A stretch of DNA of 64,000 nt from a virus. Positions 2,671 to 23,213 of this stretch are shown here, piece after piece. The stretch lies in the IMG/VR virus record IMGVR_UViG_3300044712_000688, positions 72,299 to 136,298 of that record. One strand, written 5' to 3'. The position numbers and the translations under genes are program-made. The notes beneath the pieces were generated by a model, which was not told where the DNA came from, made no database searches, and was given only the letters and a program-made list of their open reading frames with translations. Numbering within the stretch: the first letter of the stretch is position 1; each line of letters starts with the position of its first letter.

Positions 2671-5600
2671 GTGAGCTCAGCATTCACTACTCTCATCAGC
2701 AAGATTGAAAACTACTACGCTGATCACGACTACACTACCGAGGATGCCGAGTATCTTTCTCGACTAGCCATCGTTGAGTACGCTAAGGAAAAGAACGCGC
2801 TGGTTGCTTCAGCTCGTCAGGTTCCAGAGACTTCGATTGACAACATCATCGAGACAGCAATCCACTTCAACCTAGATGCTGACCCGAGCGAGTGGATGCT
2901 ATTTGCAGCTAACGCTGTTGACAACGTCCTCAACTACTCCCACCACGGAATCATCGCCTCTGGCCTTGGCGAATACACCGACTTCCTACCTCTAGGACAC
3001 CCTTCACGTACTAACCGCGGTGCTATGACCGCATCTGCTCTATCTCAGTTGACTGCCCTCTGGGTGGCCGGAGATCCTCGCATTGCTTCGGAGCAGGCTC
3101 GTCTTGACGTTTACAGTGCATATGCGACCAAGCCTGGGTCAGTAGAAGCCGACTACGCTAGCGCAAAGCTAGGTGCTTTAGTTGCTGCTGGCTATGTCCC
3201 AGAAGACGTAGTACTTCCTGTTACTGCAGCTTTCAAGATGAGCTTCGCTATGCGTTCTGCAATGGCAAAGGCGCTGGCCGCTGTTCGTCGTCGTCACCGT
3301 GACGGTCGATTCGCGGAAGAGTTCGGACGTCTACGTGGGTTCTTCAAGCGCGGAGACGGAAGCATCTTCTCCGAGGATGGCCGTATTGTTGGTGCGCCAG
3401 CTGGAACTAATAACTTCCAGATTGAGATTAAAGACAGTCCAGAAATTCCTGATGGCATCTACACCATTGACGCTGCAAAGACTGCGCCAGTAAAAGCTAT
3501 TCTTTCTAAGCGTGCGCTTTCTAAGGTAAAGGGTCTTAAGGCTAACCGCTCCATCACAAACCCGAGCAAGGCAGATATTGCTTCTGCAATTCCTCTAGAA
3601 GACTTCCTAAAGACCCGTGCAGATGCTCCAGAGGGCTGGACCAAAAACGAAGACGGTTCTTTCACCTCTAAGACTGGTCAGACCGTAAAGGCAATTACCA
3701 CCCAGCCTAAGGGCGACTATATGGTTGAGGGCGCAGGCGAGAGCGGTGCCATTGACCCTAACACCCCGATGTTTGAGATTCGCGATAAGAATGGCGAGCT
3801 TCTAGGTGTTGGTCAGAACTGGGCAGGTCTTAACAAGATTGCTATGACCTATGACGCCCTAAGTGGCGAAGGTAGCAACACTCCAGACGAGCCAGGGCTA
3901 GACCAGAAGGCTGGTGGCTCTAATCTTGACTCGCTAGTTAAGGAGCTAAAAGACGCTTCGTCTAAGTGGATGGATGAACAGCGCTTCAGCCCAGACGAGT
4001 ATGACGAGGCCACGGATGCAATGCCAGACCCTGCCGTTACTGCTGACTTTATTCTCCAAGCTGAGAAGTCGGGGGACACCTCGGAACTCAAAGGGCTACT
4101 TGATGCTTATGAGGAAAGGCCATATGCTGAAGTCCTTAAGAAGGCAATTGAGCGTATTGATGGTGAAAAGGGTCTAGACCAGAAGCCGGGAGAAGGCAAG
4201 AACTGGTATGACAACACCATTGACTTTGACCACCTATCTGATCCAGCTAACTGGAAGGGCTTTAAGGAAGGTACCCATGAGTACGTCTCTCCAGATGGAA
4301 AGCTAGAGCTAACTTGGGAGCCAGACGGTGAGCCAGACATGGGCGATGGCGCTACAGATCTGTCTGGAATTAGTGTTACCTATGATGGTCAGCCAATTGG
4401 CTCTTACTTGGCAAGTTACCGTGATTTAGAAGACGGCGACATCGCAGATGGCCTAAAGGATCTTTTCAAGAAGGAAAGCTGGTTCAGCCCAGACAACCTT
4501 GTTAAGTTCGGCCAGTATGGCAGTGCAGAATACAACAGCCCTGACGGTGGTGGCGTATACGTTGAACCTAAGGGCTCTAAGTATGAAGTTACTAAGTCGA
4601 TTCCTCAGGGTATGATTGACGAAAACGTCGAACACTCCTATGAAAAAGTCGAGACCTACAACACCAAGGAAGAGGCCCACAAAGCGGCCGAAGACTTTGC
4701 AAGGTTGCTTGAGGACCCTTCGAAGAAGTATGACCTTCTATACGGGGACTGGAGTGACAGTGACGGTGGCTTTGATCAAGCTCCGGGCGAACCTACAAAA
4801 CTAAGCGCAGCTGGTAAGAAGATTGCCAAGGACCTAGGTGACCACAAGTTCTTCCTCGAAGAGGATGCAGACGGAAACTTTACTGGAGGAGAATCAACTT
4901 ACACTTCTCCAGATGGTCGTGTAGAAGTTAAGTACCGTGACGGCTCTTGGTTTGATGACGAGAAGGGCTACGTTGCTTGGGACGAGATGCAGGTCTCTGT
5001 AGACGGCAAGCCAGTTGACAGCGTACTTCGCAACAAGCGAGAGTCTTGGCCTGACTTTCTTGACCGTGTTGCTGCTATGGCAGAGAACGGTCTAGAGAAC
5101 CCTAACTATGCAGAAGAGAAGAAGGCTAAGCGCGAAGCCGACCGCAAGGCTCAGGAAGACTTCTATAACTCTCCAGAGCAGGTAGAAAAGCGTGCCCGCG
5201 CTAAGTGGGAAAAGGAGCAGGAAGAAGCTGCTCAGGCTCAGGCTCGTGATGCAGCTGACAAAGAAGGTCTACTTAAGAAGGTAGATGATCTAGCAAACAA
5301 GATCTTCAATGGTGAAAGCGACGACAGCATCTGGGTTGGCGACGAGGACGAAGAAGGCTTCCGCAACTGGGGCGTCTATAACGAAGATGGCGAAGAGGTT
5401 GCGACCGGAAACGCTGGACCAAACTGGGACGCTACTGATATTGCTTCCGAAATTCGTGATGGCGTTAACTCGTACCTAGACAAGAAGATGGAAGAAGAGG
5501 CTGACTTCCAGTCGGGCTTTGACCAGAAGGCTGGCGAAGACAAGGCGGAGGCACCAGCTAAGCCACTATCTGAAAAGCAGATGGAACCAGCTACTGACAA

Positions 5601-8094
5601 GCAGTACGCACTTCTTGAGGAGCTTAACTCAGAGCGTGATGGTATTGACCCAGTCACTCAGAAGGCTATTGACGATGCACTAGCCAACAAGAACCTGACA
5701 AAGGCTCAGATGGCGTCTCTGTTTGGCGACCTTACTAAGAAGCCTTTCAAGCCAAACGTAGACCCTACCAAGCCAACCGAGCGCCAGATCAACTCGCTTC
5801 AGGGCTACCTAACCACCAAAGAACTAACTCCTGACGAGATGAACGACATTCTTGCTCAGCTTGATGCGGGACTAGATCGCGACTCAATCGAAAAGATTAC
5901 TGCCAAGCTACGTCGTCGTCCAGACCGTCAGCCGACTGAAGGATTTGACCAAGCTGCCGGAATTGACAGCGAGTTCGATGACGAATACGACTCGGCTCAC
6001 GCTGATGTAGAGTCTGCAATTGACCAAGCTCTGGAGGACTACCAGAACTCGCTGGAGGCTGACGGACTATCTGAGGCAGAGATTTCTGACAAGATGGACG
6101 AGGCAAACCAGATTGCCGAGCGTCTGCGTGATTCGTCCAATGTTGCTGACGCACAGGGAGCCGAGCGTGACATTGCTAACGACACCACTGGTGGAATCTT
6201 TGACAAGATTGTTGAAGACATTCGCACTAACGCAGAGGCTCTAGACTCACGTAAACAGAAGAACCTTGCTGACGCTGATCAGGCGAAGGCAGACGAGGTT
6301 CAGGCTGCGATTGACGGAGACGACTCTAGCTTCCTCGAAGACATCGTAAATGACCCGAGCTACAGCGAGTATCAGTCTCAGATTGAGGATGCTCTCGCTG
6401 ACATCAACGCACGTAAGGGCGAAGAAGAGCCTGGATTTGATCAGGCTTCTGGTAAGACCATTGCTGATGCATGGGAAGGTCTAGACCAAGATACCAAGGA
6501 CAGCGTAGTCGAGTCAATGAGCGACTACCTACTTAAGTTACGTCAAACTAACCCAGACGAGTTCTACGACATGGTTTATGACGTAGCTGTAGATCACCCA
6601 GATGGCAAGCGTGTGATGCAAAAGCCTCAGAACTATGCCGAGGACTTCATTGACTTCTATGCTAATGAAGACCCAGAGCTGATTGCAGACATGCTTGAAA
6701 ATGCTGGAGTTGATCTTGACGGCTTTGACCAAGCTCCAGGCAAGACTCTATCTCCAAAGATGATGGAGCCAGCTACTGACGCTCAGTACAACTACTTGCA
6801 GAGTCTTTTCGACAGCAAGACTGGAATTGATGACGAGACTGCTCAGGCTGTTAAGGAAGCTCTTGACTCAAAGAACTTGACTAAGGCTCAGGCTGGTGGA
6901 TTCATCGGTAAGCTCCGTGACCTTGGTGACAAGGAGAACATGGGCCAGTACGGCAAGCCTTCTCAGAAGATGATTGACTCTGTAAAGCGTGACGTCTACG
7001 CTAAGGGCCTATCTGACGCAGACCGCGAAGAAATTCTTAAGGGTCTAGAGGACAAGTCAAAGGGCGATGTCTCATTTATTATCAGCATGCTGAAAGAAAT
7101 GGATGACGTCGAGGGTGGTATTCCAAAGTACATTGACAGCCTAGTTCAGAGTGGCGACGTAGATGCATTGAAGCGTCTACGTGCTGACGATCGCTATGGT
7201 CGTTGGTCAAGCCAGATGGATGACGCTCTAGCAAAGATGGACTCTGGTAATCAGGGTTTTGACCAAGCTCCCGGGGAGCGCTCTAGCAGCGACCGAGGTC
7301 AGATGAAGTCAGATCTATCTTCTCTAGCTGAAGAGGTAGAGAACAGCAATGAAATCGGCTACGCATTTCTAAACAAGAACTTCGTTGACGGTCTTGATCT
7401 GAATGACCCTGACGACGCTTACTACCTACACGCTGAGTTGATGGATGCATACAAAGCAATGCGTCCTAACTCAGAAGAAGGTAAGGCATTGGAAGCTCGT
7501 CTTAAGAAGGCTGCTGATGACCTGCTCAACAGCATCGAGTCAGACCTAGGCCCTATTGAAGCAGCTAAGCGCGACCCAGAAGACATGGGAAGCAGTTTTG
7601 AATTTGATAGTGCTGTAGATGACCTACCTGACTTCTTTGACTACTACTTCCCGACTGATGCATCATCGGATATGAGAAATGATCCAGATGGTGGTTCAGT
7701 TGGTGATGTTCGAGGTGGTGGCTGGGAAGCTTCTGTACGCTTCAACGAGGAAACTCAGAAGTGGGAAGCCGACATGACTTCGCCAGGATTTGCTTCCGAG
7801 AACTACAGCGAGTCTTTCGATGACCAAGATGAAGCAGCCGACTGGGTAGCAAATGAGCTTGATCGCCAGAACACTTCAACACGTAATCGTGACACTAATA
7901 TTCTTGCTGAAGATGGTCTTGCCGGACTCATCGAGGAGTATGGAGATGATCCAGCAGAACTAGCTGGCGTTCTAGAAGGTGTCATTGGATGGCTTCGAGG
8001 TACTAACCGTGGACAAGCACAGAAGATTGCAAGTACTCTAGATGACTATGTTACTCGCCTACGCGAGCAGCTGGCCAAAAACCCAAAAGCCTAG
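2671..8094 (+). CDS. Large acidic modular protein (probable internal virion polyprotein, ~1807 aa) with 8 G[FL]DQxxG linkers
   Basis: GTG 2671 follows AGGAAGG (2658-2664). Lies between portal and protease genes. Asp/Glu-rich modules are separated by GLDQKAG, GLDQKPG, GFDQAPG, GFDQKAG, GFDQAAG, GFDQASG, GFDQAPG, GFDQAPG. Contains DUF3072-like repeats (PATxxQ...LTKAQ). Confidence 0.75.
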   Translation: MSSAFTTLISKIENYYADHDYTTEDAEYLSRLAIVEYAKEKNALVASARQVPETSIDNIIETAIHFNLDADPSEWMLFAANAVDNVLNYSHHGIIASGLGEYTDFLPLGHPSRTNRGAMTASALSQLTALWVAGDPRIASEQARLDVYSAYATKPGSVEADYASAKLGALVAAGYVPEDVVLPVTAAFKMSFAMRSAMAKALAAVRRRHRDGRFAEEFGRLRGFFKRGDGSIFSEDGRIVGAPAGTNNFQIEIKDSPEIPDGIYTIDAAKTAPVKAILSKRALSKVKGLKANRSITNPSKADIASAIPLEDFLKTRADAPEGWTKNEDGSFTSKTGQTVKAITTQPKGDYMVEGAGESGAIDPNTPMFEIRDKNGELLGVGQNWAGLNKIAMTYDALSGEGSNTPDEPGLDQKAGGSNLDSLVKELKDASSKWMDEQRFSPDEYDEATDAMPDPAVTADFILQAEKSGDTSELKGLLDAYEERPYAEVLKKAIERIDGEKGLDQKPGEGKNWYDNTIDFDHLSDPANWKGFKEGTHEYVSPDGKLELTWEPDGEPDMGDGATDLSGISVTYDGQPIGSYLASYRDLEDGDIADGLKDLFKKESWFSPDNLVKFGQYGSAEYNSPDGGGVYVEPKGSKYEVTKSIPQGMIDENVEHSYEKVETYNTKEEAHKAAEDFARLLEDPSKKYDLLYGDWSDSDGGFDQAPGEPTKLSAAGKKIAKDLGDHKFFLEEDADGNFTGGESTYTSPDGRVEVKYRDGSWFDDEKGYVAWDEMQVSVDGKPVDSVLRNKRESWPDFLDRVAAMAENGLENPNYAEEKKAKREADRKAQEDFYNSPEQVEKRARAKWEKEQEEAAQAQARDAADKEGLLKKVDDLANKIFNGESDDSIWVGDEDEEGFRNWGVYNEDGEEVATGNAGPNWDATDIASEIRDGVNSYLDKKMEEEADFQSGFDQKAGEDKAEAPAKPLSEKQMEPATDKQYALLEELNSERDGIDPVTQKAIDDALANKNLTKAQMASLFGDLTKKPFKPNVDPTKPTERQINSLQGYLTTKELTPDEMNDILAQLDAGLDRDSIEKITAKLRRRPDRQPTEGFDQAAGIDSEFDDEYDSAHADVESAIDQALEDYQNSLEADGLSEAEISDKMDEANQIAERLRDSSNVADAQGAERDIANDTTGGIFDKIVEDIRTNAEALDSRKQKNLADADQAKADEVQAAIDGDDSSFLEDIVNDPSYSEYQSQIEDALADINARKGEEEPGFDQASGKTIADAWEGLDQDTKDSVVESMSDYLLKLRQTNPDEFYDMVYDVAVDHPDGKRVMQKPQNYAEDFIDFYANEDPELIADMLENAGVDLDGFDQAPGKTLSPKMMEPATDAQYNYLQSLFDSKTGIDDETAQAVKEALDSKNLTKAQAGGFIGKLRDLGDKENMGQYGKPSQKMIDSVKRDVYAKGLSDADREEILKGLEDKSKGDVSFIISMLKEMDDVEGGIPKYIDSLVQSGDVDALKRLRADDRYGRWSSQMDDALAKMDSGNQGFDQAPGERSSSDRGQMKSDLSSLAEEVENSNEIGYAFLNKNFVDGLDLNDPDDAYYLHAELMDAYKAMRPNSEEGKALEARLKKAADDLLNSIESDLGPIEAAKRDPEDMGSSFEFDSAVDDLPDFFDYYFPTDASSDMRNDPDGGSVGDVRGGGWEASVRFNEETQKWEADMTSPGFASENYSESFDDQDEAADWVANELDRQNTSTRNRDTNILAEDGLAGLIEEYGDDPAELAGVLEGVIGWLRGTNRGQAQKIASTLDDYVTRLREQLAKNPKA

Positions 8095-8111
8095 CCCCCA
8101 ATGAGGGGGCT
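8082..8111 (+). other. Programmed -1 ribosomal frameshift cassette
   Basis: In-frame X_XXY_YYZ heptamer C_CCA_AAA (8082-8088), 4-nt spacer, hairpin AGCCCCC-AATGA-GGGGGCT (8093-8111). The zero frame stops at TAG 8092-8094; the -1 frame is open from 8046 to 10394. Confidence 0.8.
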
Positions 8112-10394
8112 GAGCCTGGATTAGATCAGGACGCTCCAGATTTAGACCGAATCAAGAGCATCCTAGATAAGTACCGTACTAAGCCAACTGCCACAGAGAC
8201 TGTACGTCCATCTGTAGCCGAAGGCGAGCCGGGATCTAGAACTAATCCACTCGAACTTACTCAGGAGCAACTTGATGAAAAGCTTGCCTCTGTAACCGAG
8301 ACTAACAAGGCTGCGGCTTCCAGTGTTTTGTCTAGCGTACTAGACAAACTGCGCAATCCTAGAAGCATCAAAGATTGGGTACAAAAGTGGAAGAGAGACG
8401 GTAACCGACCTCTCCCAGTCAACCCTGCAAGTGAGACCCACTACACCGGCCCCAACCTATTGGTCTTGGAAAACGCAGCTTCAGAAAACGGATTCAGCGA
8501 CCCTAGATGGATGAGTGCGTCTCAGGTTGCTCAGGCTGGAGGAACAATCCCAGCTGGAACCAAGGGTACTCAGATTCTTGTACCTAGCTTCTTTGTAACC
8601 ACCCGTGACGGCAAGGTTGTCGAGCACTTTGAGTTTAGAAAAGTCACTGTTTTTAATGGTGATCAGATTCAAGGAATCGCTCCATACAACGCTGACGAAA
8701 ACAAGTCCTACACCGCAAAAGAGGCTGTAGATATCATCCTTGACAGAATGCGTGAAGCAGCCGAGCTTCGAGGTGTCAAGGCTCCTGAAATGTTTGGTAT
8801 TCAGCTAGATGAAAACCAGAATCCACGCTGGATGCCTAACTATCGCGGAGAAGTTGATAGGATCCGACTACCACTCCGAGCAAACTTTGATAGCGATGAG
8901 TCTTGGTTTAATGCCATTACCCACGAACTAATTCACAGCACGGGTAGAACCAACCGACTTAACCGAGAAGAAGTTAAGAAGGCACTAGATGGAAACAGCA
9001 ATGCCTACGCAGAAGAAGAGCTAACTGCCGAGCTAGGCTCCATGCTTCTATCAAAGATGTTTGGTCTTGACGCTGACCAAGATAACTCAATCAGCTACTT
9101 GCTCACTCACATTAGAAACCTAGATGGCATTGACGCGGATAAGGCCGTGACTGATGCCATGACTAGGGCACAGCTAGCTGCCGACTACCTGCTTGGTAAC
9201 GATGTTCTTCCTCAGTGGAACCCGCTGAAGACTAAGGTTGCCCCGACCCCACAGTCGGTAAGAATGGCGTCTACTACTCCAGAAGACTCGAGCCTGAACC
9301 CAGACACTAATCCTGATTCAGTTGATGCTCCTCTAGTAGGACTTGACCAAGCCCCGGGCAAGAAGCCTTTCAACCGCGCTAAGTCCGTGTCTGACAGCAA
9401 GGATGCTAAAGAGCGAGTTCTATCTGGACTACTGGAAAAGATTAAAGAAGGTAAGGCTCCTTGGCGTAAGCCATTTAAGGATGACGCTAACTATGCTGGT
9501 GCATTCGTTCCGCGTAACCCAGCATCGAAGCACATTTACAGCGGTATTAACTCGATTGTTCTTAAGCTGTACCAGCAGTTGTCTGGGTATGACGATCCTC
9601 GCTGGATGACCTACAACCAAGCCACAGAATTAGGTGGTCAGGTTCGTAAGGGCGAGAAAGGTGTACAAATCCTTGTTCCTTATAAGAGGGTCAAGAAAGA
9701 GAAGGATTCCTCAACTGGAGAAGAGAAGGTAACTGGTAGTTACGTAACATTTGGTGTAAAGACCGTGTTCAATGTTGAGCAGATTGATGGTCTAAACCTG
9801 CCTACCGTCAAGGCCGAGGCTGGAGAGCCTAAGACCCCGCTCGAGGCACAAGACTTCATTCTTGAGCGCTACCAAAAGTCAATGGAGGCCAAGGGTCTAA
9901 AGGCTCCTGAAATTTCATATACATATGTAGGTCAGTACGGTAGCCACTCATCTTCTCCAAACTGGGACCCAAGTTTCGACATGATTACCCTCCCAACCAA
10001 GGAGCAGTTCAATAGCCCAGAGGATATGTTTGACACCATTGCCCATGAGCTTGCTCACTCGACCGGACACAGGGATCGCCTTGACCGCACCGAGCTAACC
10101 AAGAACTATGGAACAAGCAATGCAGCCCGAGGTGAGGAAGAGCTTATTGCAGAAATCTCTGCAGCAATCCTAGCCAGCATGTTCGGTGTTAACAGCGACT
10201 TTGACAATACCGCGGCCTATGTAAAGAGTTGGCTAAAAGCACTACAGGATAACCCTGATATGGTTATGAAAGCCTCTTCTGAAGCTCAGAAGGTAGTAGA
10301 CTATTTGCTAGGTATGGATCTGGGAGACTGGAGCCCTATCGAGGGTTACCGAGCATCAAACAAATCTAAATCAGATGGAGACTCAGATGAGTAA
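8088..10394 (+). CDS. ardC: -1 frame extension of the polyprotein: two tandem ArdC-like units (ssDNA-binding N-domain plus zincin/MPTase)
   Basis: Unit 1: NPASETHYTGPN, DPRWMS, VFNGDQI, HELIH (8922-8936), EEELTAELGS. Unit 2: APWRKPF, YSGIN, DPRWMTYNQ, GGQVRKGEKG, VFNVEQI, HELAH (10044-10058), EEELIAEISA. No Shine-Dalgarno before the first possible start (TTG 8328). Confidence 0.85.
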   Translation, partial: SLAPNEGAEPGLDQDAPDLDRIKSILDKYRTKPTATETVRPSVAEGEPGSRTNPLELTQEQLDEKLASVTETNKAAASSVLSSVLDKLRNPRSIKDWVQKWKRDGNRPLPVNPASETHYTGPNLLVLENAASENGFSDPRWMSASQVAQAGGTIPAGTKGTQILVPSFFVTTRDGKVVEHFEFRKVTVFNGDQIQGIAPYNADENKSYTAKEAVDIILDRMREAAELRGVKAPEMFGIQLDENQNPRWMPNYRGEVDRIRLPLRANFDSDESWFNAITHELIHSTGRTNRLNREEVKKALDGNSNAYAEEELTAELGSMLLSKMFGLDADQDNSISYLLTHIRNLDGIDADKAVTDAMTRAQLAADYLLGNDVLPQWNPLKTKVAPTPQSVRMASTTPEDSSLNPDTNPDSVDAPLVGLDQAPGKKPFNRAKSVSDSKDAKERVLSGLLEKIKEGKAPWRKPFKDDANYAGAFVPRNPASKHIYSGINSIVLKLYQQLSGYDDPRWMTYNQATELGGQVRKGEKGVQILVPYKRVKKEKDSSTGEEKVTGSYVTFGVKTVFNVEQIDGLNLPTVKAEAGEPKTPLEAQDFILERYQKSMEAKGLKAPEISYTYVGQYGSHSSSPNWDPSFDMITLPTKEQFNSPEDMFDTIAHELAHSTGHRDRLDRTELTKNYGTSNAARGEEELIAEISAAILASMFGVNSDFDNTAAYVKSWLKALQDNPDMVMKASSEAQKVVDYLLGMDLGDWSPIEGYRASNKSKSDGDSDE

Positions 10395-10554
10395 AGAAAA
10401 GCCTGACATGCTAGGCGGATATACTGAGAATGATCCTGAGTATTGGACTCTTTTAGCCAAAATTATTGGTAATCCAGTACCAGATTACGAAGATGACAGT
10501 GAATTCGTTGACGAAAACGGCGTTGTTATCAAAGATATCACACCTGATAAATAA
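10387..10554 (+). CDS. Small acidic hypothetical protein (55 aa), not in the ORF track
   Basis: ATG 10387 overlaps the ArdC end, with GGAG 6 nt upstream. MSKEKPDMLGGYTENDPEYWTLLAKIIGNPVPDYEDDSEFVDENGVVIKDITPDK. Confidence 0.65.
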   Translation: MSKEKPDMLGGYTENDPEYWTLLAKIIGNPVPDYEDDSEFVDENGVVIKDITPDK

Positions 10555-10615: not shown

Positions 10616-12730
10616 ATGAACCACCTAATCGGCCGCTCTGGCGAACTAGCATTCTATGCTAACAATACACACGGTGTAGTGATCAACACTGCCGTAGGAG
10701 CTGTCGTCGCTAGCGGTGTAGCCCTCGACATTTTCGCAGAAAACAAATGGGAAACCTCGGGTACCCCCCTTACTCCGGCTGAAAAACTGCTTGCCGATAA
10801 GGTTCTAGCCAACCTAGAAGAAGAAGCCATCGTTGCTTCTGCAGACAGAATGTACACCATTCCTAAGTCTGTAGAGGCAGAGGCAAAGAAAGCTTTAGAG
10901 TGGCGTAAGGAAGAAGGCCGAGGAGGGACTCCTGTTGGCCTAAACACTGCTCGCACGCTTGCTAAGGGCGGTCAGATCGGTATCCGCAAGATTCGCCACA
11001 TTGCTAAGTACTTCCCTCGTCACGAAGTTGATAAGAAGGGTAAAGGCTGGAAGCCTGGCCAAGATAACTTCCCATCTAACGGTCGTATCGCATGGGCACT
11101 TTGGGGTGGAGACGCCGCTTGGCGTTGGGCACGTGCAATCGTTGAGCGCGAAGATAAGAAAGAGAAGTCAGTCACTGCTGGTGGTGGCTACACTGTCTCT
11201 AACTATGTAGATCAGGTCAACTACCCTAAGCAGAACGAAGAGCTAAACCCGTTCAAGTACGCTCATGAGCTTGATGAAAACTACGGCCCAGAATTCTTGG
11301 CTCGAGTTTGCCTAGATGGTTCTGGTATTGACCGACTTTACATGATAGACATAGACGGCTCGGTCTACGTCTGGGACGACGCTTGCTGGGACAACCTAGG
11401 TCACGTTGATGGTGACATCTGGACATACGACCGTATGTTGGATGATGTCTATGATCTAGAGGAAAAGTCTCACGTAATTATTGACCCTCAGTCTGCTCTT
11501 ATGATTGCAGCTCGTATGGCTGTAGACCCATACTGCAAGACTTCTGTCTTTGATCTAGATGCTGATGAAGCTTCTTTAATGGAGGCTGGTATTGGTGGCG
11601 AAGACTGGGAGTTTATTGACCAAGTAATTACTGCCGCAGCCCCTACCAACCAAGACGGCAACTACACTCCAGAAGAGCGTTCAGCAAACGCTGGTAACCA
11701 GCCTCGAGACGCTATGGGCCAGTTTGCTAAGGTAGGCCAGAAGGTAGCTATCGGTGGAGACGCTGCTAGAGGTTCTGGCACAATCCGCGACATTGATGGT
11801 GCTACTGGTATTGTTACCGTTGACCTTGCTGATGGACGAACTGTAAAGGTTGGTTCTAAGTACCTAGTCCCTGCAGAAAAGGCAAGTAGTCGTCCAAACT
11901 CTTTGCGTGTTGATGATGCAAATAAAGCTCCTATGGACTTCTCTGGGATCATTGGCGAGCCTCGTACTCCTCAGAACAGCAAGAAGGCCCACCTTCCGGG
12001 AACTCTACCAAAGCTAGATGTCAATGAATTTATCAACAACTACGCTTCTTGGGTGGAGAAGGAACGCTACAAGCCAAGGAGCGCAGCTGACAAGGCTGCG
12101 GTCAAGAAGCGTTGGCCAAATGCCAAGTTCACAGATGCATCTATCATTGCCTCTGCCGAAGAGAAGATTCTCACTCCTTCAACTTCTGACGTAACCCCTA
12201 GGTACCTAGCTATCGTTGCTCAGGAAGACCCTGAAGCAATGGTTGATCTAGTAGCAATTATTCCTAAGACCGCTACTTCCACTTCTCCAATTGCCTACAA
12301 GCGTGAGGGAGATAAGTGGGTTCAGGATGACCAGACCCTAGCAGACCTTCGTTCAGCAACTAAGCCTCCAGTAGTAGAGCTAGATAAAGAATCCCTAAAG
12401 GATGTTCTATCTCAGATGTCTGAGAACAAGCCTACAGAAGAGACTGCTCCAGAAGCGGTTATGGCTAGCTTGCTTACTGTCCTCGATGCTTTTGTGGCAG
12501 CAGGTGGAGCTGATAAGAACCGTGGCAACGCAGAAAAACTTCGTCGCTACTGGGTATATGGAGAAGGTGCTGCCAAGATCCGCTGGGGCCAGCCTGGAGA
12601 CTGGAAGCGTTGTGTACGCTACCTAGCTAAGCACCTAGGCCCACGTGCAAAGGGATACTGCCAACTTCGTCACAAGGATGCCCTTGGCTACTACACCGCA
12701 ACCCATGCGAAAAGAGACCGTAATGGCTAA
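10616..12730 (+). CDS. Multidomain head-morphogenesis / internal virion protein
   Basis: Contains GTPVGLNTARTLAKG...IAWALWGGDAAWRWA (a domain typical of phage head-region proteins), QPRDAMGQF, an SH3/KOW-like segment and a C-terminal RYW...KIRWGQPGDWKRC domain. Directly precedes the protease gene. Confidence 0.6.
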   Translation: MNHLIGRSGELAFYANNTHGVVINTAVGAVVASGVALDIFAENKWETSGTPLTPAEKLLADKVLANLEEEAIVASADRMYTIPKSVEAEAKKALEWRKEEGRGGTPVGLNTARTLAKGGQIGIRKIRHIAKYFPRHEVDKKGKGWKPGQDNFPSNGRIAWALWGGDAAWRWARAIVEREDKKEKSVTAGGGYTVSNYVDQVNYPKQNEELNPFKYAHELDENYGPEFLARVCLDGSGIDRLYMIDIDGSVYVWDDACWDNLGHVDGDIWTYDRMLDDVYDLEEKSHVIIDPQSALMIAARMAVDPYCKTSVFDLDADEASLMEAGIGGEDWEFIDQVITAAAPTNQDGNYTPEERSANAGNQPRDAMGQFAKVGQKVAIGGDAARGSGTIRDIDGATGIVTVDLADGRTVKVGSKYLVPAEKASSRPNSLRVDDANKAPMDFSGIIGEPRTPQNSKKAHLPGTLPKLDVNEFINNYASWVEKERYKPRSAADKAAVKKRWPNAKFTDASIIASAEEKILTPSTSDVTPRYLAIVAQEDPEAMVDLVAIIPKTATSTSPIAYKREGDKWVQDDQTLADLRSATKPPVVELDKESLKDVLSQMSENKPTEETAPEAVMASLLTVLDAFVAAGGADKNRGNAEKLRRYWVYGEGAAKIRWGQPGDWKRCVRYLAKHLGPRAKGYCQLRHKDALGYYTATHAKRDRNG

Positions 12731-15563
12731 CGAACAAGAATTCCTTATGGAAGAGATTTTGACCAAGAATTACGGTGTTCCTACGGAGATCACCGATGAA
12801 GATCTATTGATGCCTATCGAAGACATCATGTTTGAAGATGATGACATCTACGATGACTCTTGGGAGCCAGACGAGGAAACTTGCCGTCAGCTAGCCGAGC
12901 TAGCGGATTGCGATGACGAAGAATATGCGTCCCTTATTGCTGCTGGTGGCCTAGACCGTAACCGTGGTAACGCAGAGGAGCTTCGCCAGTACTGGACTCG
13001 CGGTAAGGGCGCTGCCAAGATTCGCTGGGGTACCCCTGGCGATTGGACTCGTTGCGTTCGTCAGCTTTCAAAGTACATGGGCCCACGCGCTAAGGGCTAT
13101 TGCCAGCTACGCCACAAGGACGCGACTGGTATCTACACTGGTAGCCGATTCAACCCGGGCCGTCGTAATGAAACCTCTAGCCTATATGCAAGCGAAGCTG
13201 AGTTTACCCAGTCGGTTATCGCTCAGGCAGAACTTACTGCTAGAGCGAACCACGCTAGAGAGCGTTTCGGTCTAGTTGCAAGTGCTGGTATGCAACACGG
13301 TGCAAAGTTCAACATTCCTCTACTGATCCCAGAAGACTTGGAGTCAGGAGATGGCCGTAAGTTTGTGAAGGACTCTCTATCAGTTCGAGAGCTTCCACTT
13401 CCACTTCTATGGCAGATCAAGACCGGCGACGGTCACATGGGGTCTGTGGTGGTTGGACGTATTGATTACGTAGAAAGAACCGAAAACGGTATTGGAAATG
13501 CCTATGGTGTTTTTGATACAGGAGCATATGGTCAAGAAGCAGAGCGTCTAGTACGTAACGGATTTATCCGTGGTGTTTCTGCAGATCTTGACCAGTTCGA
13601 AGCAGAAGAAGATAAGACTGAAAATGCTGAGGACACCGAAGACGTAGGTAAGAAGAAGTTAACCATAAATCACGCCCGTGTAATGGCTGCTACAATTGTA
13701 GCTAAGCCTGCATTCCAAGAATGCACTATCTCTATTGAAGAAAAACCAGCGGGAGACCAGGAGGATGAAGTGATTCCAGTTGACGGAATATATGAAGAAT
13801 CCGTCGAACAAGAATTCTCTGGCACATCGCTAGTTGCTTCAGGATTCATTGACGGCGAGATTCCTATGACACCACCAGCAGAGTGGTTCAAGGATCCTAA
13901 GCTAACTAAGCCAACCCCAATCACCGTTGACCCTTCTGGTCGTATCTACGGTCACATTGCAGCTTGGCACGTAAACCACATTGGCATGCCTCGCTCTACC
14001 CGCCCACCTCGCTCAAAGAGCAAGTACGCATACTTCCACACTGGTGTAGTCCGCTGTGCTGACGGAACTGACATGCCAGTGGGACAGTTAACTCTTGCTG
14101 GTGGACACGCACCTCTAACTGCTAACGCTGCTTCTGCAGCTAAGCACTACGACGACACCGCTTCTGCGATTGCAGATGTTCACATGGGTGAAGACGAGTA
14201 TGGAATCTGGTGTGCTGGCTCGGTACGTCCAGACGCAACCGAGATGCAGATTCGCGCACTTCGCGCTTCTGCTCCTTCTGGCGACTGGCGTCCAATTAAT
14301 GGCTCGCTCGAGCTTGTTGCAGTTTGTCAGGTAAACGTTCCAGGCTTCCCGATTGCTCGCGCAATGGTTGCTTCAGGTAAGGTTATGGCTCTAGTTGCAG
14401 CTGGTGCAAGCATGATGGCAATCATGAAGAGTCAGCACGTAGCAACCCTATCTGAGCGTGCATACAACCTAGCTGAACTTTCAGCTAGCGCCCCAGACCT
14501 ACGTTCTCGTGTAAAGTCTGCAAAGAAGGCTGTAAAGAAGCAGGCTCTAGTTGCTGCTGCTGCTAAGGCAGAAGAACTAAAGACCCGTGCTCTAGTTGCT
14601 GCTGCCGTTGCCGAGCTAGCTAAGTTCTCTGACGAAGAGAGAATGAAGCTTGCTGACAAGGGTCAGGCTCTACCAGATGGTTCGTTCCCAGTGCGCAACG
14701 AACAGGATCTCCGTAATGCTATCCAAGCATATGGACGTGCAAAGCGAGAGAACCGAGTAGCTGTCCGCAAGCACATTATCAAGCGAGCTAAGGCTCTAGG
14801 TAAGGCATACCTGATTCCAGATGAGTGGAAGTCAGCTGGTTCTACCGAGGCCGCGACAATCGTTGCTTCGATGCGTTCTCGTATCGCAGAATTTGCAGAA
14901 GCCCCGATCAAGGAGATTTCTGACGCAGACCTAAAGAAGCTGAAGGATGTAAAGGCCGAAGCTGACAAGCAGACTGCAGAAGAGATCAAGCTCGCTGAGG
15001 ATATTCGTACTGGTAAGACTACTGCCAAGGAAGTCTATGACAAAGAAGGTCGTAGCAAGTACACCCCAAAAACCCAACCCCGTGACGCTAAAGGTAAGTA
15101 CCGCAAGGTTCTTGCTCGACTAAAGCAGAACCTAGGTGTGGCGGGGCTTCAGAAGGCTTTGGAAAAGGTAGAAAAGGCAGAAAACCTAGAGTTTGCTGGC
15201 GACTACGTAAACTCAGCCAAGGCTAGTAGCGAGCTACTAGGAATGATTGATCGTCTAGATACTAAGGCCCTAAACCCTAAGTCTCTAGAAAACGTCCGCT
15301 CAACAGCGGCCGAACTAGGCAAGACAATTGCCAACCTTCCATTGCCATTCGGCAAGGAAGCTCAGAAAGTTAGATTTAGCGATCTACCTGCCGGACTAAA
15401 GACACTCATCGATGGGATGATTTCTCGAGTCGAAGCAAAGATCGGTAAAGAGGACGCAGATATTGCAACCGCAAATCTGAAGTCCTTCATGTCTGGTGCA
15501 GATGTCTATTCTCAGGCTGAAATTCAGTCAGAGATGAACACCCTGCTCCGACTCCTTACCTAA
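12723..15563 (+). CDS. Capsid maturation protease, multidomain fusion
   Basis: ATG 12723 overlaps the previous stop. SGDGRKF...LPLPLLWQ...GHMGSVVVGRID and GFIRGVSADLD resemble actinophage prohead proteases. Also carries GRIYGHIAAW, a DUF6582-like domain (LPDGSFPVRNEQDLRNAIQAYGRA) and a copy of the WGxPGDW domain. Confidence 0.8.
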   Translation: MANEQEFLMEEILTKNYGVPTEITDEDLLMPIEDIMFEDDDIYDDSWEPDEETCRQLAELADCDDEEYASLIAAGGLDRNRGNAEELRQYWTRGKGAAKIRWGTPGDWTRCVRQLSKYMGPRAKGYCQLRHKDATGIYTGSRFNPGRRNETSSLYASEAEFTQSVIAQAELTARANHARERFGLVASAGMQHGAKFNIPLLIPEDLESGDGRKFVKDSLSVRELPLPLLWQIKTGDGHMGSVVVGRIDYVERTENGIGNAYGVFDTGAYGQEAERLVRNGFIRGVSADLDQFEAEEDKTENAEDTEDVGKKKLTINHARVMAATIVAKPAFQECTISIEEKPAGDQEDEVIPVDGIYEESVEQEFSGTSLVASGFIDGEIPMTPPAEWFKDPKLTKPTPITVDPSGRIYGHIAAWHVNHIGMPRSTRPPRSKSKYAYFHTGVVRCADGTDMPVGQLTLAGGHAPLTANAASAAKHYDDTASAIADVHMGEDEYGIWCAGSVRPDATEMQIRALRASAPSGDWRPINGSLELVAVCQVNVPGFPIARAMVASGKVMALVAAGASMMAIMKSQHVATLSERAYNLAELSASAPDLRSRVKSAKKAVKKQALVAAAAKAEELKTRALVAAAVAELAKFSDEERMKLADKGQALPDGSFPVRNEQDLRNAIQAYGRAKRENRVAVRKHIIKRAKALGKAYLIPDEWKSAGSTEAATIVASMRSRIAEFAEAPIKEISDADLKKLKDVKAEADKQTAEEIKLAEDIRTGKTTAKEVYDKEGRSKYTPKTQPRDAKGKYRKVLARLKQNLGVAGLQKALEKVEKAENLEFAGDYVNSAKASSELLGMIDRLDTKALNPKSLENVRSTAAELGKTIANLPLPFGKEAQKVRFSDLPAGLKTLIDGMISRVEAKIGKEDADIATANLKSFMSGADVYSQAEIQSEMNTLLRLLT

Positions 15564-15586: not shown

Positions 15587-15662
15587 GGTGGAGCGCCTCG
15601 CACATTCCGTGCTGAGTCCCTCAGCCTTGACTGTTCACCATGAATGGGATCTTCCTATTCAT
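15587..15662 (+). promoter_or_regulatory. Structured 5' leader of the major capsid mRNA
   Basis: GGTGGA/TTCACC closing stem, GCAC-ATTCC-GTGC and GCTGAG-TCC-CTCAGC hairpins, then a 10-bp hairpin at 15640-15662, ahead of SD AGGAGG at 15680. Confidence 0.45.
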
Positions 15663-15689
15663 AAAACCAATACTGGCCTAGGAGGTACA

Positions 15690-17711
15690 GTGTACGACCA
15701 GATTAAAACACAGCTAGACACCCTGGCTGATCTTAGCGATGAACAACTCGCTGAGCTTCAGACCCAGATTGTCGGCGAGTTTGAATCGATCGATGCTGAT
15801 GAACCAACTTCCGAGTCAGTTGATGCGATGACATCCCTAGCGGATTCCCTTGACATCGTACGTGGTGAGCTTTCTCGTCGCGAGGCCCTCGCTGAAGAGT
15901 TAGCTGCTCGTGCGGCTGAGGCTACTGCCCGTATTAAGGGTGGAGCCGAAGAAGGAGAGGAAATGGCTATGGAAGACATGCCAATCGTAGAAGAGGCCCC
16001 TGTAGAAGAGGCCCCTGTTGAGGAAGCCCCAGTAGAAGAAGCAGAGGAAACTCCTGCTGACGAAGTTACTGAGACTCCTGAAGAGGAAAAGAAGGAAGAG
16101 GAAGAGGACAAGGAAGAGCCTATGAAGGCATCTGCCGAGACCGAAACCACTCCTGAAACTTCAGCATCAATTGACCAGGAATCAGGTTCTGAACTATCGA
16201 CCGAATCGGTTGAGACTGTTGACGAGACCATTACTGCAGACGGTTCTGCCGAGGAAGTAGTTGCTGATGAAGCTCCTGCTACCGAAGCTGCCGTAGAAGC
16301 AACCGAAGCTCCGGCTGAAGTTGTTGTAGAAGCAGTAGAGGGTTCGGAAGCATCAGCCGAAGAAACCACTTTAGAAACATCAACCGCTCTCGTAGAAGAG
16401 CAGAAAGAGCAGGCACTAGTGAGCGCCGCAGCAGAACAGCCTTTCGAGGCTCCAGCTGACCGTCAGCCTGTAGTTCAGGTAACCGAGGCTCCAGTGGCAA
16501 TCACCGCTGGCGCAGACATCCCTGGCTACACCGCAGGCAGCACCATCAACGATATGAACGAAGTAGCTCAGGCTATGGAGAAGCGTATCCACTCGCTACG
16601 CCGTGTAAACGGCGGCGACGGAGAGCAGCACATCGTTGCATCTATCACCACTCAGTACCCAGAAGAGCGTACTCTTACTGCTAACGCAGAAGAGAATGCC
16701 CTCAAGATTGGTAACGTTGTAGGTCAGGACGCACTTGTTGCTTCTGGTGGCCACGCAGCTCCATTCGAGGTCAAGTACGACATCTTCGCAATCGGTTCAA
16801 CCACTGTACGCCCAGTTCGCGATGCACTGCCTCGCTTCCAGGCTGACCGTGGCGGTATCCGCTTTGTGACCCCACCTAGCTTCGCATCTGGTGACTACGC
16901 TAGCGCAGTTGGCGTATGGACCGCAGCTGTTGACGCTGACCCACAGAGCGCTACTAAGACCAGCTTGACCGTTACCGCTGCTCAGGAGCAGACTGTTTCG
17001 ACTGACGCTGTTACCTTGCAGCTACAGTTCGGTAACCTCATGACTCGTGCTTACCCAGAGTTGATTGCTCGCCACAACGAGCTAGCTCTTGTACAGCACG
17101 CTCGCGAGGCAGAGCAGAACCTGCTAAGCAAGATTGGTGACGCTTCGACTGCTGTTACTACCACCAACCTAATCGGTTTTGGTCGTGACTTCCTAGTTCA
17201 GATCCGTCGTGCAGCTGTTGCTTACCGCTCACGTCACCGCATTGACCCACAGACCCGTCTGAAGGCTATCGTTCCTTCATGGATCTACGAGGCAATGGCA
17301 GCTGACCTAACCCTATCAATGCCTGGTGACGGCACCCTTGCTGTCTCACGCGCTGAGATTGATGGTTACCTTGCAACCGTTAACGTTGACCTAGTGGCTT
17401 CGCTAGACCAGAACGTCTTCGGTGCACAGGGTGCTTCGGCTCTTCTAGAGTTCCCAGACAGCTTCGTTTGGTACCTCTTCGCAGAAGGCACCTTCCTGTT
17501 CCTTGATGGCGGTACTCTTGACCTTGGTATCATCCGTGACTCGTCACTGGTTGGCACCAACGACTACAAGATGTTCACCGAAACCTTCGAGAACGTTGCT
17601 AAGGTCGGTATCGAGGCTCTTAAGATCACCTCGACCATCTCAATCAACGGTGTTGCTGCAGCTCTGCGCGACACCACTGGTGGCACCGCTGCAGCCACCA
17701 TCGAGCTCTAA
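15690..17711 (+). CDS. Major capsid protein with N-terminal acidic scaffold region
   Basis: GTG 15690 follows AGGAGG. Coiled-coil plus Glu/Ala/Pro-rich N-half. ALVASGG precedes the HK97-fold-like region (RGGIRF, GTLDLGIIRDSSLVGTNDYKMFTETFE). Confidence 0.9.
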   Translation: MYDQIKTQLDTLADLSDEQLAELQTQIVGEFESIDADEPTSESVDAMTSLADSLDIVRGELSRREALAEELAARAAEATARIKGGAEEGEEMAMEDMPIVEEAPVEEAPVEEAPVEEAEETPADEVTETPEEEKKEEEEDKEEPMKASAETETTPETSASIDQESGSELSTESVETVDETITADGSAEEVVADEAPATEAAVEATEAPAEVVVEAVEGSEASAEETTLETSTALVEEQKEQALVSAAAEQPFEAPADRQPVVQVTEAPVAITAGADIPGYTAGSTINDMNEVAQAMEKRIHSLRRVNGGDGEQHIVASITTQYPEERTLTANAEENALKIGNVVGQDALVASGGHAAPFEVKYDIFAIGSTTVRPVRDALPRFQADRGGIRFVTPPSFASGDYASAVGVWTAAVDADPQSATKTSLTVTAAQEQTVSTDAVTLQLQFGNLMTRAYPELIARHNELALVQHAREAEQNLLSKIGDASTAVTTTNLIGFGRDFLVQIRRAAVAYRSRHRIDPQTRLKAIVPSWIYEAMAADLTLSMPGDGTLAVSRAEIDGYLATVNVDLVASLDQNVFGAQGASALLEFPDSFVWYLFAEGTFLFLDGGTLDLGIIRDSSLVGTNDYKMFTETFENVAKVGIEALKITSTISINGVAAALRDTTGGTAAATIEL

Positions 17712-22521: not shown

Positions 22522-22857
22522 ATGACTAAATTCAAGGACTTTGGTAGTGGTCCAGACCTTACCAACGTAGAGCCAATTACCTTCGCAATTCACGGTGAAA
22601 ATTTTGAATGCAAGAAGGCCGTGCCTGGAAAGCTTTTGCTTGATTTGGTGGCTAAGTCAAAGTCAGCTGACCCAGCTGAAGCAGCCGGAACTATTGATCA
22701 GTTCTTCTCAAAGGTGCTTGTAGCGGAAAGCTACGAGCGGTTCAATGCACTTCTCGAAGATGCTGACCGAATTGTCACAGTAGAGCAGCTTGGTGACATC
22801 ACTGGTTGGGTTGTGGAGCAGTTCAGCGAACGCCCGGAAGAGCAGCCAGAGGCTTAG
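22522..22857 (+). CDS. Tail assembly chaperone (gpG-like)
   Basis: 111 aa, two ORFs upstream of the tape measure gene. Confidence 0.75.
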   Translation: MTKFKDFGSGPDLTNVEPITFAIHGENFECKKAVPGKLLLDLVAKSKSADPAEAAGTIDQFFSKVLVAESYERFNALLEDADRIVTVEQLGDITGWVVEQFSERPEEQPEA

Positions 22858-23213
22858 CAGAATGGGCTATTGACCTCTGGCCCTACGTGAATGGAAAAGC
22901 TTTGATTTCGGGAATCAACCTAAAGGAGATGAATATGTCAGACATGCTAGACGTTATTCATTTCATGTTCGAGGAAGATTCTCGTTATCTATCTCAGGAG
23001 GAAGTCGAATCCGTGAGTGCTACTCGTACTCAGGTATACGAAACCTTATATGGGGTAACTTACAACTATAAAGTGAAGGCTCGTAGTAAGACAAACTCTA
23101 CTTCTACGGGTGTTCCTGATCTAGATGAAGTTAAACCATATGTTCCTCCAACAGAGTTTGATCCTGAATCATCTAACCCATTCGGCAGTCTTTTAGAAGC
23201 TCCGCTTCGCTAA
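22806..23213 (+). CDS. Tail assembly chaperone second ORF (gpT-like), -1 frame relative to gpG
   Basis: Overlaps the gpG end in the -1 frame (LAEWAIDLWPYVNG...DMLDVIHF). Alternative independent ATG at 22935 with AAGGAG. Confidence 0.65.
   Translation: MGCGAVQRTPGRAARGLAEWAIDLWPYVNGKALISGINLKEMNMSDMLDVIHFMFEEDSRYLSQEEVESVSATRTQVYETLYGVTYNYKVKARSKTNSTSTGVPDLDEVKPYVPPTEFDPESSNPFGSLLEAPLR

What the first reader, a model, noticed from the sequence alone, without database searches (positions are those of the whole stretch)
8046..8140. Canonical -1 frameshift fuses the 1,800-aa acidic protein to an anti-restriction module
Seen: the long ORF ends ...AAA AAC CCA AAA GCC TAG. C_CCA_AAA (8082-8088) is an in-frame X_XXY_YYZ heptamer, overlapped by A_AAC_CCA. 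Four nt downstream is a hairpin, AGCCCCC-AATGA-GGGGGCT. The -1 frame is open from 8046 to 10394, has no start codon before TTG 8328 (which lacks an SD), and reads ...PKSLAPNEGAEPGLDQDAPD, so the upstream protein's linker motif reappears 10 codons after the slip. Known: CCCAAAA plus a stem-loop drives -1 frameshifting in Lactobacillus phage A2 capsid/tail genes. Inference: two products of about 1,807 and 2,574 aa are made at a fixed ratio, setting how much ArdC cargo is produced. I am not aware of frameshifting described for a phage ArdC-containing polyvalent protein.
Basis: partly seen in the sequence, partly recalled or inferred. Interest (0 to 1): 0.92.

Follow-up and report, generated by a model that had tools for sequence, protein, structure and literature searches.

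The report
Conserved frameshift arms giant phage protein
In this uncultured 136-kb phage and its relatives, a giant head-region gene ends in a conserved ribosome-slipping signal, so a fraction of ribosomes very probably step back one base and add two ArdC anti-restriction/peptidase units, a use of frameshifting that I found in no paper.

Summary
The 1,807-aa ORF (2671-8094) ends AAC CCA AAA GCC TAG. C_CCA_AAA (8082-8088) is in phase. An 8-bp GC hairpin (8092-8112) follows, and the -1 frame runs open to 10394 through two ArdC-N/zincin units.

Eight independently assembled contigs (59-90% aa identity upstream) keep heptamer, TAG and stem letter for letter, while flanking synonymous sites are saturated. 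None has a conserved start or SD in the -1 frame, and one has no start codon for 140 codons. The start-less stretch evolves as coding sequence in the -1 frame. The G[FL]DQ linker motif, private to the giant protein, recurs 10 codons after the slip.

A distant sister family fuses the same domains in frame. Other distant relatives (DSL-LC01, L035) carry the same cassette in phase with one more spacer base, so there the slip truncates instead of extends.

An assembly error is excluded, and independent initiation and transcriptional slippage are poorly supported. Programmed -1 frameshifting is the best reading (about 0.88), but no protein evidence exists.

The mechanism is canonical. The use is new: dosing cargo on a polyvalent phage protein. 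This scan has noted similar CCCAAAA cassettes on other phage DNA (e1-5837974, e1-5967282, e1-5748544).

The parts
2671..8094 (+). 0-frame giant ORF (1,807 aa, GTG start; acidic and modular, with 9 G[FL]DQ linker motifs). It is the short product when no slip occurs.
   Evidence: Homologues P0004-P0016 start at the equivalent MSSAFT... and all end ...[NS]PKA*.
8082..8088 (+). Slippery heptamer C_CCA_AAA, in phase with the giant ORF.
   Evidence: Identical in 8 contigs although the codon before it varies (AAC/TCC/GCC, always ending in C). It is one of only 3 CCCAAAA in 64 kb.
8089..8091 (+). Spacer codon GCN (Ala). This is the only position of the cassette outside the loop that varies (GCC/GCT/GCG).
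8092..8094 (+). 0-frame stop TAG, embedded in the 5' arm of the hairpin. It is TAG in all 8 contigs.
   Evidence: Most neighbouring head genes end in TAA.
8092..8112 (+). Stimulatory hairpin UAGCCCCC-N5-GGGGGCUG (8 bp, loop 8100-8104).
   Evidence: The stem is invariant in 8 contigs and the loop is variable. dG is -15.8 to -22.3 kcal/mol.
8088..10394 (+). -1 frame extension (768 codons plus TAA) read after the slip: a start-less linker region, ArdC unit 1, a GLDQ linker, then ArdC unit 2.
8118..8129 (+). First G-L-D-Q linker motif of the -1 frame. It lies 10 codons after the slip and 70 codons before any start codon.
   Evidence: The motif occurs in no other real ORF of the window.
8328..9338 (+). 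ArdC unit 1 (ArdC-N plus zincin MPTase; HELIH at 8922-8936). TTG 8328 is the first possible start, has no SD and is not conserved.
9339..9350 (+). Second G-L-D-Q linker, between the two ArdC units.
9351..10391 (+). ArdC unit 2 (ArdcN best stretch at residues 452-565 and MPTase-PolyVal at 639-745 of P0002; HELAH at 10044-10058).

Best explanation
This is a programmed -1 ribosomal frameshift. Ribosomes translating the giant head-module gene reach C_CCA_AAA with tRNA-Pro on CCA and tRNA-Lys on AAA, while the invariant 8-bp GC hairpin, which contains the UAG stop, sits at the mRNA entrance. Most ribosomes read GCC and terminate, giving the 1,807-aa protein. A fraction slips back one base (CCA to CCC, AAA to AAA), reads AGC CUA GCC CCC..., and continues for 768 codons. 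This gives a 2,574-aa fusion that carries two ArdC-N/zincin-peptidase units behind further G[FL]DQ linkers. The sequences show the signal, its conservation, the coding status of the start-less -1 stretch, and the existence of in-frame and swapped-topology versions in relatives. Four steps are inferred: that slipping happens and at what rate, that both products are packaged into the capsid and delivered with the DNA like other phage polyvalent proteins, that the frameshift sets a sub-stoichiometric dose of ArdC/peptidase cargo, and that the linkers are processing sites.
For: (1) The anatomy is exactly as described. The site is the extreme outlier among 54 in-phase heptamers of the window.
(2) Eight independent assemblies from different metagenomes (window, L002/L007, L003/L008, L004, L005, L010, L011, L018) keep CCCAAAA-GCN-TAG-CCCCC-N5-GGGGGCTG. 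Upstream aa identity among them is 59-90%.
(3) There is nucleotide-level constraint. At four-fold sites of aa-invariant codons, the third base is invariant in only 3 of 50 flanking codons. In the heptamer and stem it is invariant in 5 of 5 (CCA, GCC, CCC, GGG, GCT). The spacer GCN and the loop vary.
(4) All 14 database homologues of the giant (48-100% identity in the C-domain) end [NS]PKA*.
(5) No start or SD is conserved in the -1 frame. L003 has no ATG/GTG/TTG in 140 codons. In L003 and L005 a TAA opens the -1 frame only one codon before the heptamer, so the shift must occur within AAA AAC CCA AAA GCN.
(6) The 76 start-less codons after the hairpin show differences of 301/142/551 at codon positions 1/2/3, for example 13 synonymous against 2 non-synonymous between window and L002.
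(7) G[FL]DQ occurs 9 times in the giant, twice in the -1 ORF and in no other real ORF of 64 kb.
(8) L014 and at least 16 database clusters fuse the giant's C-domain to ArdC in one frame.
(9) Distant relatives with a homologous N-domain (DSL-LC01, 32% identity; L035, 29.5%) carry in-phase C_CCA_AAA, a 5-nt spacer and an AGCCCC-tetraloop-GGGGCU hairpin inside a continuous giant ORF, with a -1 stop 3 codons on. One spacer base therefore decides whether the slip extends or truncates.
(10) Cargo after the cassette is modular: an extra ParB-like module in L005 and an extra module in L018. Database ORFs of this kind have ragged N-termini that cut into domains.
(11) CCCAAAA is a published phage slip site (PMC6950654; PMC5009743).
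Against: There is no protein, ribosome-profiling or reporter evidence, and the efficiency is unknown. The stem never varies, so there is no compensatory covariation (0 of 13 pairs). The structure argument rests on synonymous-site invariance over few sites. The spacer is short (3-4 nt to the first pair, against the usual 5-9 from general knowledge of -1 PRF). For DSL-LC01 the hairpin alone is not more stable than shuffles of its GC-rich context. The swapped-topology cases were found with a pattern that demanded the cassette.
Confidence: 0.88

Rival explanations
1. There are two separate genes. The ArdC ORF is translated on its own, from an internal or non-canonical start or by termination-reinitiation after the UAG. 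The hairpin would then serve something else, such as mRNA stability or processing.
For: Gene callers annotate separate ORFs. TTG/ATG/GTG codons exist 43-82 codons after the slip in most contigs.
Against: These starts are not conserved in position, lack SD-like sequences, and are absent for 140 codons in L003. The stretch upstream of them is under purifying selection in the -1 frame and holds the giant's private linker motif. No AUG/GUG/UUG or near-cognate codon lies in the -1 frame between the UAG and the GLDQ motif. Database N-termini of such ORFs are ragged and cut into ParB-like domains.
Confidence: 0.05
2. The cause is transcriptional slippage. RNA polymerase adds one A in the A-run, so a subset of mRNAs encodes the fusion directly.
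For: The site contains A5 and A4 runs in the window. The outcome (two products) would be the same.
Against: Only A4 (with C3-4) is conserved. The A5 run is absent in L004, L011 and L018. From established knowledge (reviewed in PMC5009743), productive slippage needs longer homopolymers. An invariant hairpin 4 nt downstream and a tandem-slip heptamer in phase are the hallmarks of ribosomal frameshifting, not of transcriptional slippage.
Confidence: 0.03
3. This is an artefact or decay: an assembly indel, or a recent frameshift mutation that has inactivated the ArdC part.
For: It is a metagenome-assembled genome, and reads could not be checked.
Against: The same frame offset is found in 8 independent assemblies and in 14 protein clusters that all end PKA*. 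The -1 ORF is intact over about 770 codons in every full-length contig, with both HExxH motifs kept and a synonymous-biased substitution pattern.
Confidence: 0.02

Closest known systems
Lactobacillus phage A2 major head (gp5A/5B) and major tail -1 frameshifts (Garcia 2004; Rodriguez 2005, cited in PMC5009743; CCCAAAA noted for this phage group in PMC6950654)
   Same: Same heptamer C_CCA_AAA near the end of a late structural-module gene, followed by a stem-loop. It yields a short product and a C-terminally extended product.
   Different: In A2 the extension is a short structural (Ig-like) addition to capsid and tail subunits. Here it is a 768-aa enzymatic and anti-restriction cargo added to a giant non-capsid protein. 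The A2 papers themselves could not be read here.
Lambda gpG/gpGT tail assembly chaperone frameshift
   Same: A conserved -1 PRF in a phage morphogenesis operon that sets the ratio of a short and a long product.
   Different: The heptamer (G_GGA_AAG), the protein family and the role (tail-length chaperone) all differ. No strong hairpin is needed there (own knowledge).
E. coli dnaX tau/gamma -1 frameshift (reviewed in PMC5009743)
   Same: It matches the swapped-topology relatives (DSL-LC01, L035, L083). There the heptamer plus hairpin sits inside a long ORF and the -1 frame stops at once, so slipping gives the truncated form.
   Different: In the window itself the slip extends rather than truncates. 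The heptamer differs and there is no upstream SD-like stimulator.
Retroviral gag-pol -1 frameshift
   Same: It works alike. A slip near the end of a modular polyprotein gene adds enzymatic domains, including a peptidase, to a minority of molecules, and recurring linker motifs separate the modules.
   Different: There is no homology. This is a dsDNA phage. Cleavage at G[FL]DQ and any role of the zincin in it are untested.
Polyvalent proteins of phages and conjugative elements (Iyer et al. 2017, PMC5512222); phage P1 Dar/DdrB packaged anti-restriction proteins
   Same: ArdC-N and MPTase zincin domains (plus ParB-like and ADP-ribosyltransferase domains in relatives) are strung on one giant polypeptide, encoded next to portal and head genes.
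   Different: That paper never mentions frameshifting (0 occurrences). Here part of the polyvalent protein is reached only by recoding. The 1,807-aa core matches no known domain.

Membership tests
Programmed -1 ribosomal frameshift signal (X_XXY_YYZ plus 3' structure) | In-phase heptamer that allows both tRNAs to re-pair in the -1 frame | tested here: met
   C_CCA_AAA at 8082-8088 is in phase with the 2671-8094 ORF and is invariant in 8 contigs.
Programmed -1 ribosomal frameshift signal (X_XXY_YYZ plus 3' structure) | Stable RNA structure just downstream | tested here: met
   An 8-bp GC hairpin, -15.8 to -22.3 kcal/mol in all contigs. It is the strongest downstream structure of all 54 in-phase heptamers in the window.
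Programmed -1 ribosomal frameshift signal (X_XXY_YYZ plus 3' structure) | Spacer of about 5-9 nt between heptamer and structure | tested here: inconclusive
   The spacer is 3 nt to the U.G pair and 4 nt to the A-U pair, at the short end of the range. Swapped-topology relatives have 5 nt.
Programmed -1 ribosomal frameshift signal (X_XXY_YYZ plus 3' structure) | The -1 ORF has no initiation signal of its own and is coding from the slip site onward | tested here: met
   The shift window is limited to 5 codons in L003 and L005.
Programmed -1 ribosomal frameshift signal (X_XXY_YYZ plus 3' structure) | Signal conserved beyond what coding requires | tested here: met
   Four-fold sites are invariant in 5 of 5 cassette codons against 3 of 50 in the flanks. 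There is no covariation because the stem never varies.
Programmed -1 ribosomal frameshift signal (X_XXY_YYZ plus 3' structure) | Trans-frame protein demonstrated | not testable with these tools
   This needs a reporter assay or mass spectrometry.
Polyvalent proteins (Iyer et al. 2017) | Several unrelated conflict-related domains in one polypeptide | tested here: met
   The trans-frame product carries 2 x (ArdcN + MPTase-PolyVal). Relatives add a ParB-like module and an ADP-ribosyltransferase. The 0-frame core has no recognised domain.
Polyvalent proteins (Iyer et al. 2017) | In phages: encoded among late, portal and head genes | tested here: met
   Portal at 3-1463; head-maturation-protease-like protein and major head protein downstream.
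Polyvalent proteins (Iyer et al. 2017) | Packaged in the virion and delivered with the DNA | not testable with these tools
   This is inferred from gene position only.
ArdC | ArdC-N ssDNA-binding domain followed by a zincin metallopeptidase with HExxH | tested here: met
   PF08401 E = 6e-48, PF18818 E = 1e-47, two stretches each. phrog_7245 anti-restriction protein E = 1.5e-119. HELIH and HELAH are present.
ArdC | Anti-restriction activity | not testable with these tools
Gag-Pol-type polyprotein (functional analogy only) | A peptidase in the frameshift extension cleaves linker sites of both products | not tested
   G[FL]DQ motifs delimit the modules, but no cleavage evidence exists.

The most novel reading that the evidence does not exclude
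The cassette (C_CCA_AAA plus a GC hairpin with a stop codon in one of the two frames) is a portable dosing joint of giant, virion-delivered polyvalent proteins in actinobacterial-type phages. One spacer base toggles it between a gag-pol-like (extending) and a dnaX-like (truncating) layout. In this family it works with the G[FL]DQ linkers as a true gag-pol analogue: the zincin peptidase reached only by frameshifting cuts the linkers and releases the modules in the capsid or in the newly infected cell.
Probability: 0.2. Interest if true: 0.85.

Novelty: new variant of a known kind. Interest (0 to 1): 0.66.

Why it matters
Polyvalent proteins are thought to be a phage's first strike against host defences, but how their many modules are dosed is unknown. 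This case is strongly supported by comparison of sequences. It shows recoding controlling how many copies of an anti-restriction/peptidase cargo are made per copy of a giant carrier protein. The same cassette is reused in both extending and truncating layouts in distant relatives.

In practice, gene callers split or truncate these genes (ragged N-termini in databases), so the effector repertoires of uncultured phages are mis-annotated. It also adds a well-defined, testable family to the short list of bacterial-virus -1 frameshift sites outside tail chaperones and capsid decoration.

Tried and rejected
- **Searches that found nothing.** blastn of the junction against cultured and deposited phages gave no match. 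The search for related loci with P0016 found none.
- **Other recoding modes, rejected from the sequence.** TAG read-through meets the next 0-frame stop 9 codons on (8122-8124). A +1 shift meets TGA at 8102-8104.
- **Second downstream hairpin (8117-8149).** It is not conserved in L003, L005, L011 or L018, so it is not part of the signal.
- **Overlapping A_AAC_CCA heptamer.** It is not conserved.
- **Identity of the giant's parts.** Pfam and PHROGs found nothing for the core or for 9 separate modules, apart from a weak sub-threshold DUF3072 hit. The ESM Atlas gave no hit. The AlphaFold2 model of the N-domain had pLDDT 67 and pTM 0.39, and Foldseek against PDB and BFVD gave nothing at E <= 0.001.
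- **Suspected second frameshift at 12645-12730.** Rejected. These are two coupled genes, each with a copy of one module, which are one fused ORF in L010 and L011.
- **Prohead protease as the G[FL]DQ-specific enzyme.** Nothing supports it, because the motif is absent from all other head proteins.
Full report
**Setting.** The window is bases 72299-136298 of a 136,298-bp IMG/VR virus record with direct terminal repeats. The region is a siphovirus-type late operon, in this order:
- portal (3-1463);
- two small genes;
- the giant ORF;
- the ArdC ORF;
- a 704-aa protein;
- a 972-aa protein that matches the PHROG families labelled portal and head maturation protease;
- the major head protein (15588-17711);
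- tail genes.

The nearest deposited genome is the metagenome-assembled Actinomycetia phage DSL-LC01. It is 32% identical over the giant's N-domain and has the same gene position between portal and capsid protease.

**Checking the observation.** All the stated features are present at the stated coordinates.
- The 0 frame ends AAA AAC CCA AAA GCC TAG (stop at 8092-8094).
- C_CCA_AAA (8082-8088) is in phase.
- The hairpin AGCCCCC/GGGGGCU, extended by a U.G pair to 8 bp at 8092-8112, folds at -17.7 kcal/mol.
- The -1 frame is open from 8046 to 10394. It contains two ArdcN + MPTase-PolyVal units (E about 1e-47) with HELIH and HELAH motifs.
- The products would be 1,807 and 2,574 aa.

Among the 54 in-phase X_XXY_YYZ heptamers in long ORFs of the window, this site ranks first for -1 frame length (770 codons against 50 for the next unrelated site). 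It also ranks first for downstream folding energy. Read-through of TAG and a +1 shift both meet stops within 3-9 codons.

**Not an error, and conserved.** Protein-guided and pattern-guided searches recovered seven further distinct contigs from different metagenomes: L002/L007, L003/L008, L004, L005, L010, L011 and L018. Their upstream aa identity to the window is 59-90%.
- All of them read CCCAAAA-GCN-TAG-CCCCC-N5-GGGGGCTG.
- The codon before the heptamer encodes N, S or A but always ends in C.
- The loop varies: AATGA, AACGA, GAAGC, GAAGA, AGCGA, AAAAA.
- The spacer wobble base varies.
- The stem and the TAG never vary.
- Fourteen database homologues of the giant (48-100% identity in the last domain, 1,651-2,200 aa) all end [NS]PKA*.

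*Synonymous-site test.* In aa-invariant four-fold codons of the flanks, the third base is invariant in 1 of 22 (upstream) and 2 of 28 (downstream). In the heptamer and stem it is invariant in 5 of 5. The conservation therefore acts on the RNA, not only on the A-P-x-x-G-A peptide that the stem encodes. Because the stem is invariant, there is no compensatory covariation.

- No start codon or SD-like sequence is conserved in the -1 frame, and L003 has none for 140 codons.
- In L003 and L005 a TAA closes the -1 frame one codon before the heptamer. The frame change must therefore occur within AAA AAC CCA AAA GCN.
- The 76 codons between the hairpin and the window's first possible start show a coding substitution pattern in the -1 frame: 301/142/551 differences at codon positions 1/2/3.
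- The motif G[FL]DQ separates the modules of the giant in all homologues. In the window it occurs 9 times in the giant, twice in the -1 ORF (8118 and 9339) and in no other real ORF.

**Relatives with other layouts.**
1. *In-frame fusion.* L014 has an N-domain 41% identical to ours. Its giant's last domain runs straight into one ArdC unit in a single 1,430-aa ORF. At least 16 database clusters share this fused form.
DSL-LC01 has C_CCA_AAA after residue 2214 of its 3,289-aa ORF. It is followed by GGTGA and AGCCCC-UUCG-GGGGCU, and the -1 frame stops after 3 codons.
3. *Pattern scan.* A scan of viral contigs returned mostly intergenic terminator-like background. It also found L035: a 2,588-aa giant with an N-domain 29.5% identical to ours, carrying CCCAAAA-GCTGA-AGCCCC-GAAA-GGGGCT with the -1 frame reading PKS*. 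It found L083 (exonuclease and UvrD helicase upstream of the cassette, ADP-ribosyltransferase after it) and L081 (an AAA ATPase after it).

In these relatives the long form is the default product and the slip truncates it. The two layouts differ by one spacer base (5 against 4 nt), and the hairpin encodes A-P-x-G-A in whichever frame continues. This search required the cassette, so it shows recurrence, not frequency.

**Cargo is modular.** After the cassette, L005 inserts a ParB-like nuclease module and L018 inserts another module, both before ArdC. Database ORFs related to the ArdC part carry ParB and ADP-ribosyltransferase domains. Their predicted N-termini start at arbitrary points inside domains, as expected for ORFs without real starts.

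**Mechanism and rivals.** The best reading is canonical tandem-slip -1 frameshifting stimulated by the hairpin (confidence 0.88). The rivals are independent initiation or reinitiation (0.05), transcriptional slippage on a run of only four conserved A (0.03), and artefact or decay (0.02). Each conflicts with the data above.

Four things are not shown: the efficiency, the packaging of the proteins, the biological purpose of the ratio, and whether G[FL]DQ sites are cleaved. The spacer is shorter than usual.

**Literature.**
- CCCAAAA is a reported slip site in the major head genes of the L. casei phage group (PMC6950654). A2 frameshifting is listed in PMC5009743.
- The general motif definition is in PMC4066793.
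- The polyvalent-protein paper (PMC5512222) proposes MPTase-mediated autoprocessing but never mentions frameshifting.
- Searches combining frameshifting with anti-restriction or polyvalent proteins found nothing relevant.

Other agents of this scan have noted similar CCCAAAA cassettes in post-portal genes of other phage genomes. These notes are unpublished AI notes, and I did not check them on their own DNA.

**Verdict.** The mechanism is of a known kind, used in a new way.

Noticed in passing
L006:18630-18660 (DSL-LC01, OQ999401.1); L035 minus strand (giant ORF 2696-10462); L083; L081: These carry the same cassette in a swapped layout. In-phase C_CCA_AAA, a 5-nt spacer holding a -1 frame TGA, and an AGCCCC-tetraloop-GGGGCU hairpin lie inside continuous giant ORFs, so a slip would truncate the protein as in dnaX. 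In L083 the domain after the cassette is an ADP-ribosyltransferase. In L081 it is an AAA ATPase.
   Followed up: partly
L014:7593-11885 and proteins P0019-P0034: This is a sister family in which the giant's N-domain and last domain are fused in frame to a single ArdC unit. It has no G[FL]DQ linkers and no heptamer at the junction.
   Followed up: partly
window 10616-12730 and 12645-15563: The two ORFs overlap by 85 nt and looked like a second frameshift. They are two coupled genes (likely ATG near 12723 overlapping the TAA), each carrying one copy of a ~75-aa phrog_6439 module. In L010 and L011 the equivalent is one fused ~1,500-aa ORF with a single copy.
   Followed up: yes
window 15065-15071: A second in-phase C_CCA_AAA lies in the 972-aa head gene. 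The -1 frame stops after 6 codons. There is no nearby hairpin (the nearest structure is 21 nt away, z = -0.48). It is probably chance.
   Followed up: partly
window 22524-22857 and 22797-23213: A tail-assembly-chaperone-like ORF pair lies just upstream of the tape measure gene, offset by -1. The 60-nt overlap contains no canonical X_XXY_YYZ heptamer.
   Followed up: no
L018:2018-6427: The giant gene of this relative has an in-frame stop at codon 889, just after a duplicated GLDQAAKSVSDRDRQL stretch. This looks like a recombination or assembly scar between two linker-flanked modules.
   Followed up: no
proteins P0035-P0059: Database ORFs related to the ArdC extension carry ParB-like and ADP-ribosyltransferase domains. 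They begin at arbitrary internal Met/Val/Leu, some inside the ParB fold. This suggests that many are mis-called frameshift extensions.
   Followed up: partly
loci L069, L105, L114: Among pattern hits that lie inside long ORFs, most are in phase (7 against 1-3 out of phase; one third would be expected). These further cases were not examined.
   Followed up: no
window 5527-5943 and 6733-7257: Two modules of the giant share an EPATD.QY...KNLTKAQ core. The second gives a weak sub-threshold DUF3072 match (E = 0.002).
   Followed up: partly
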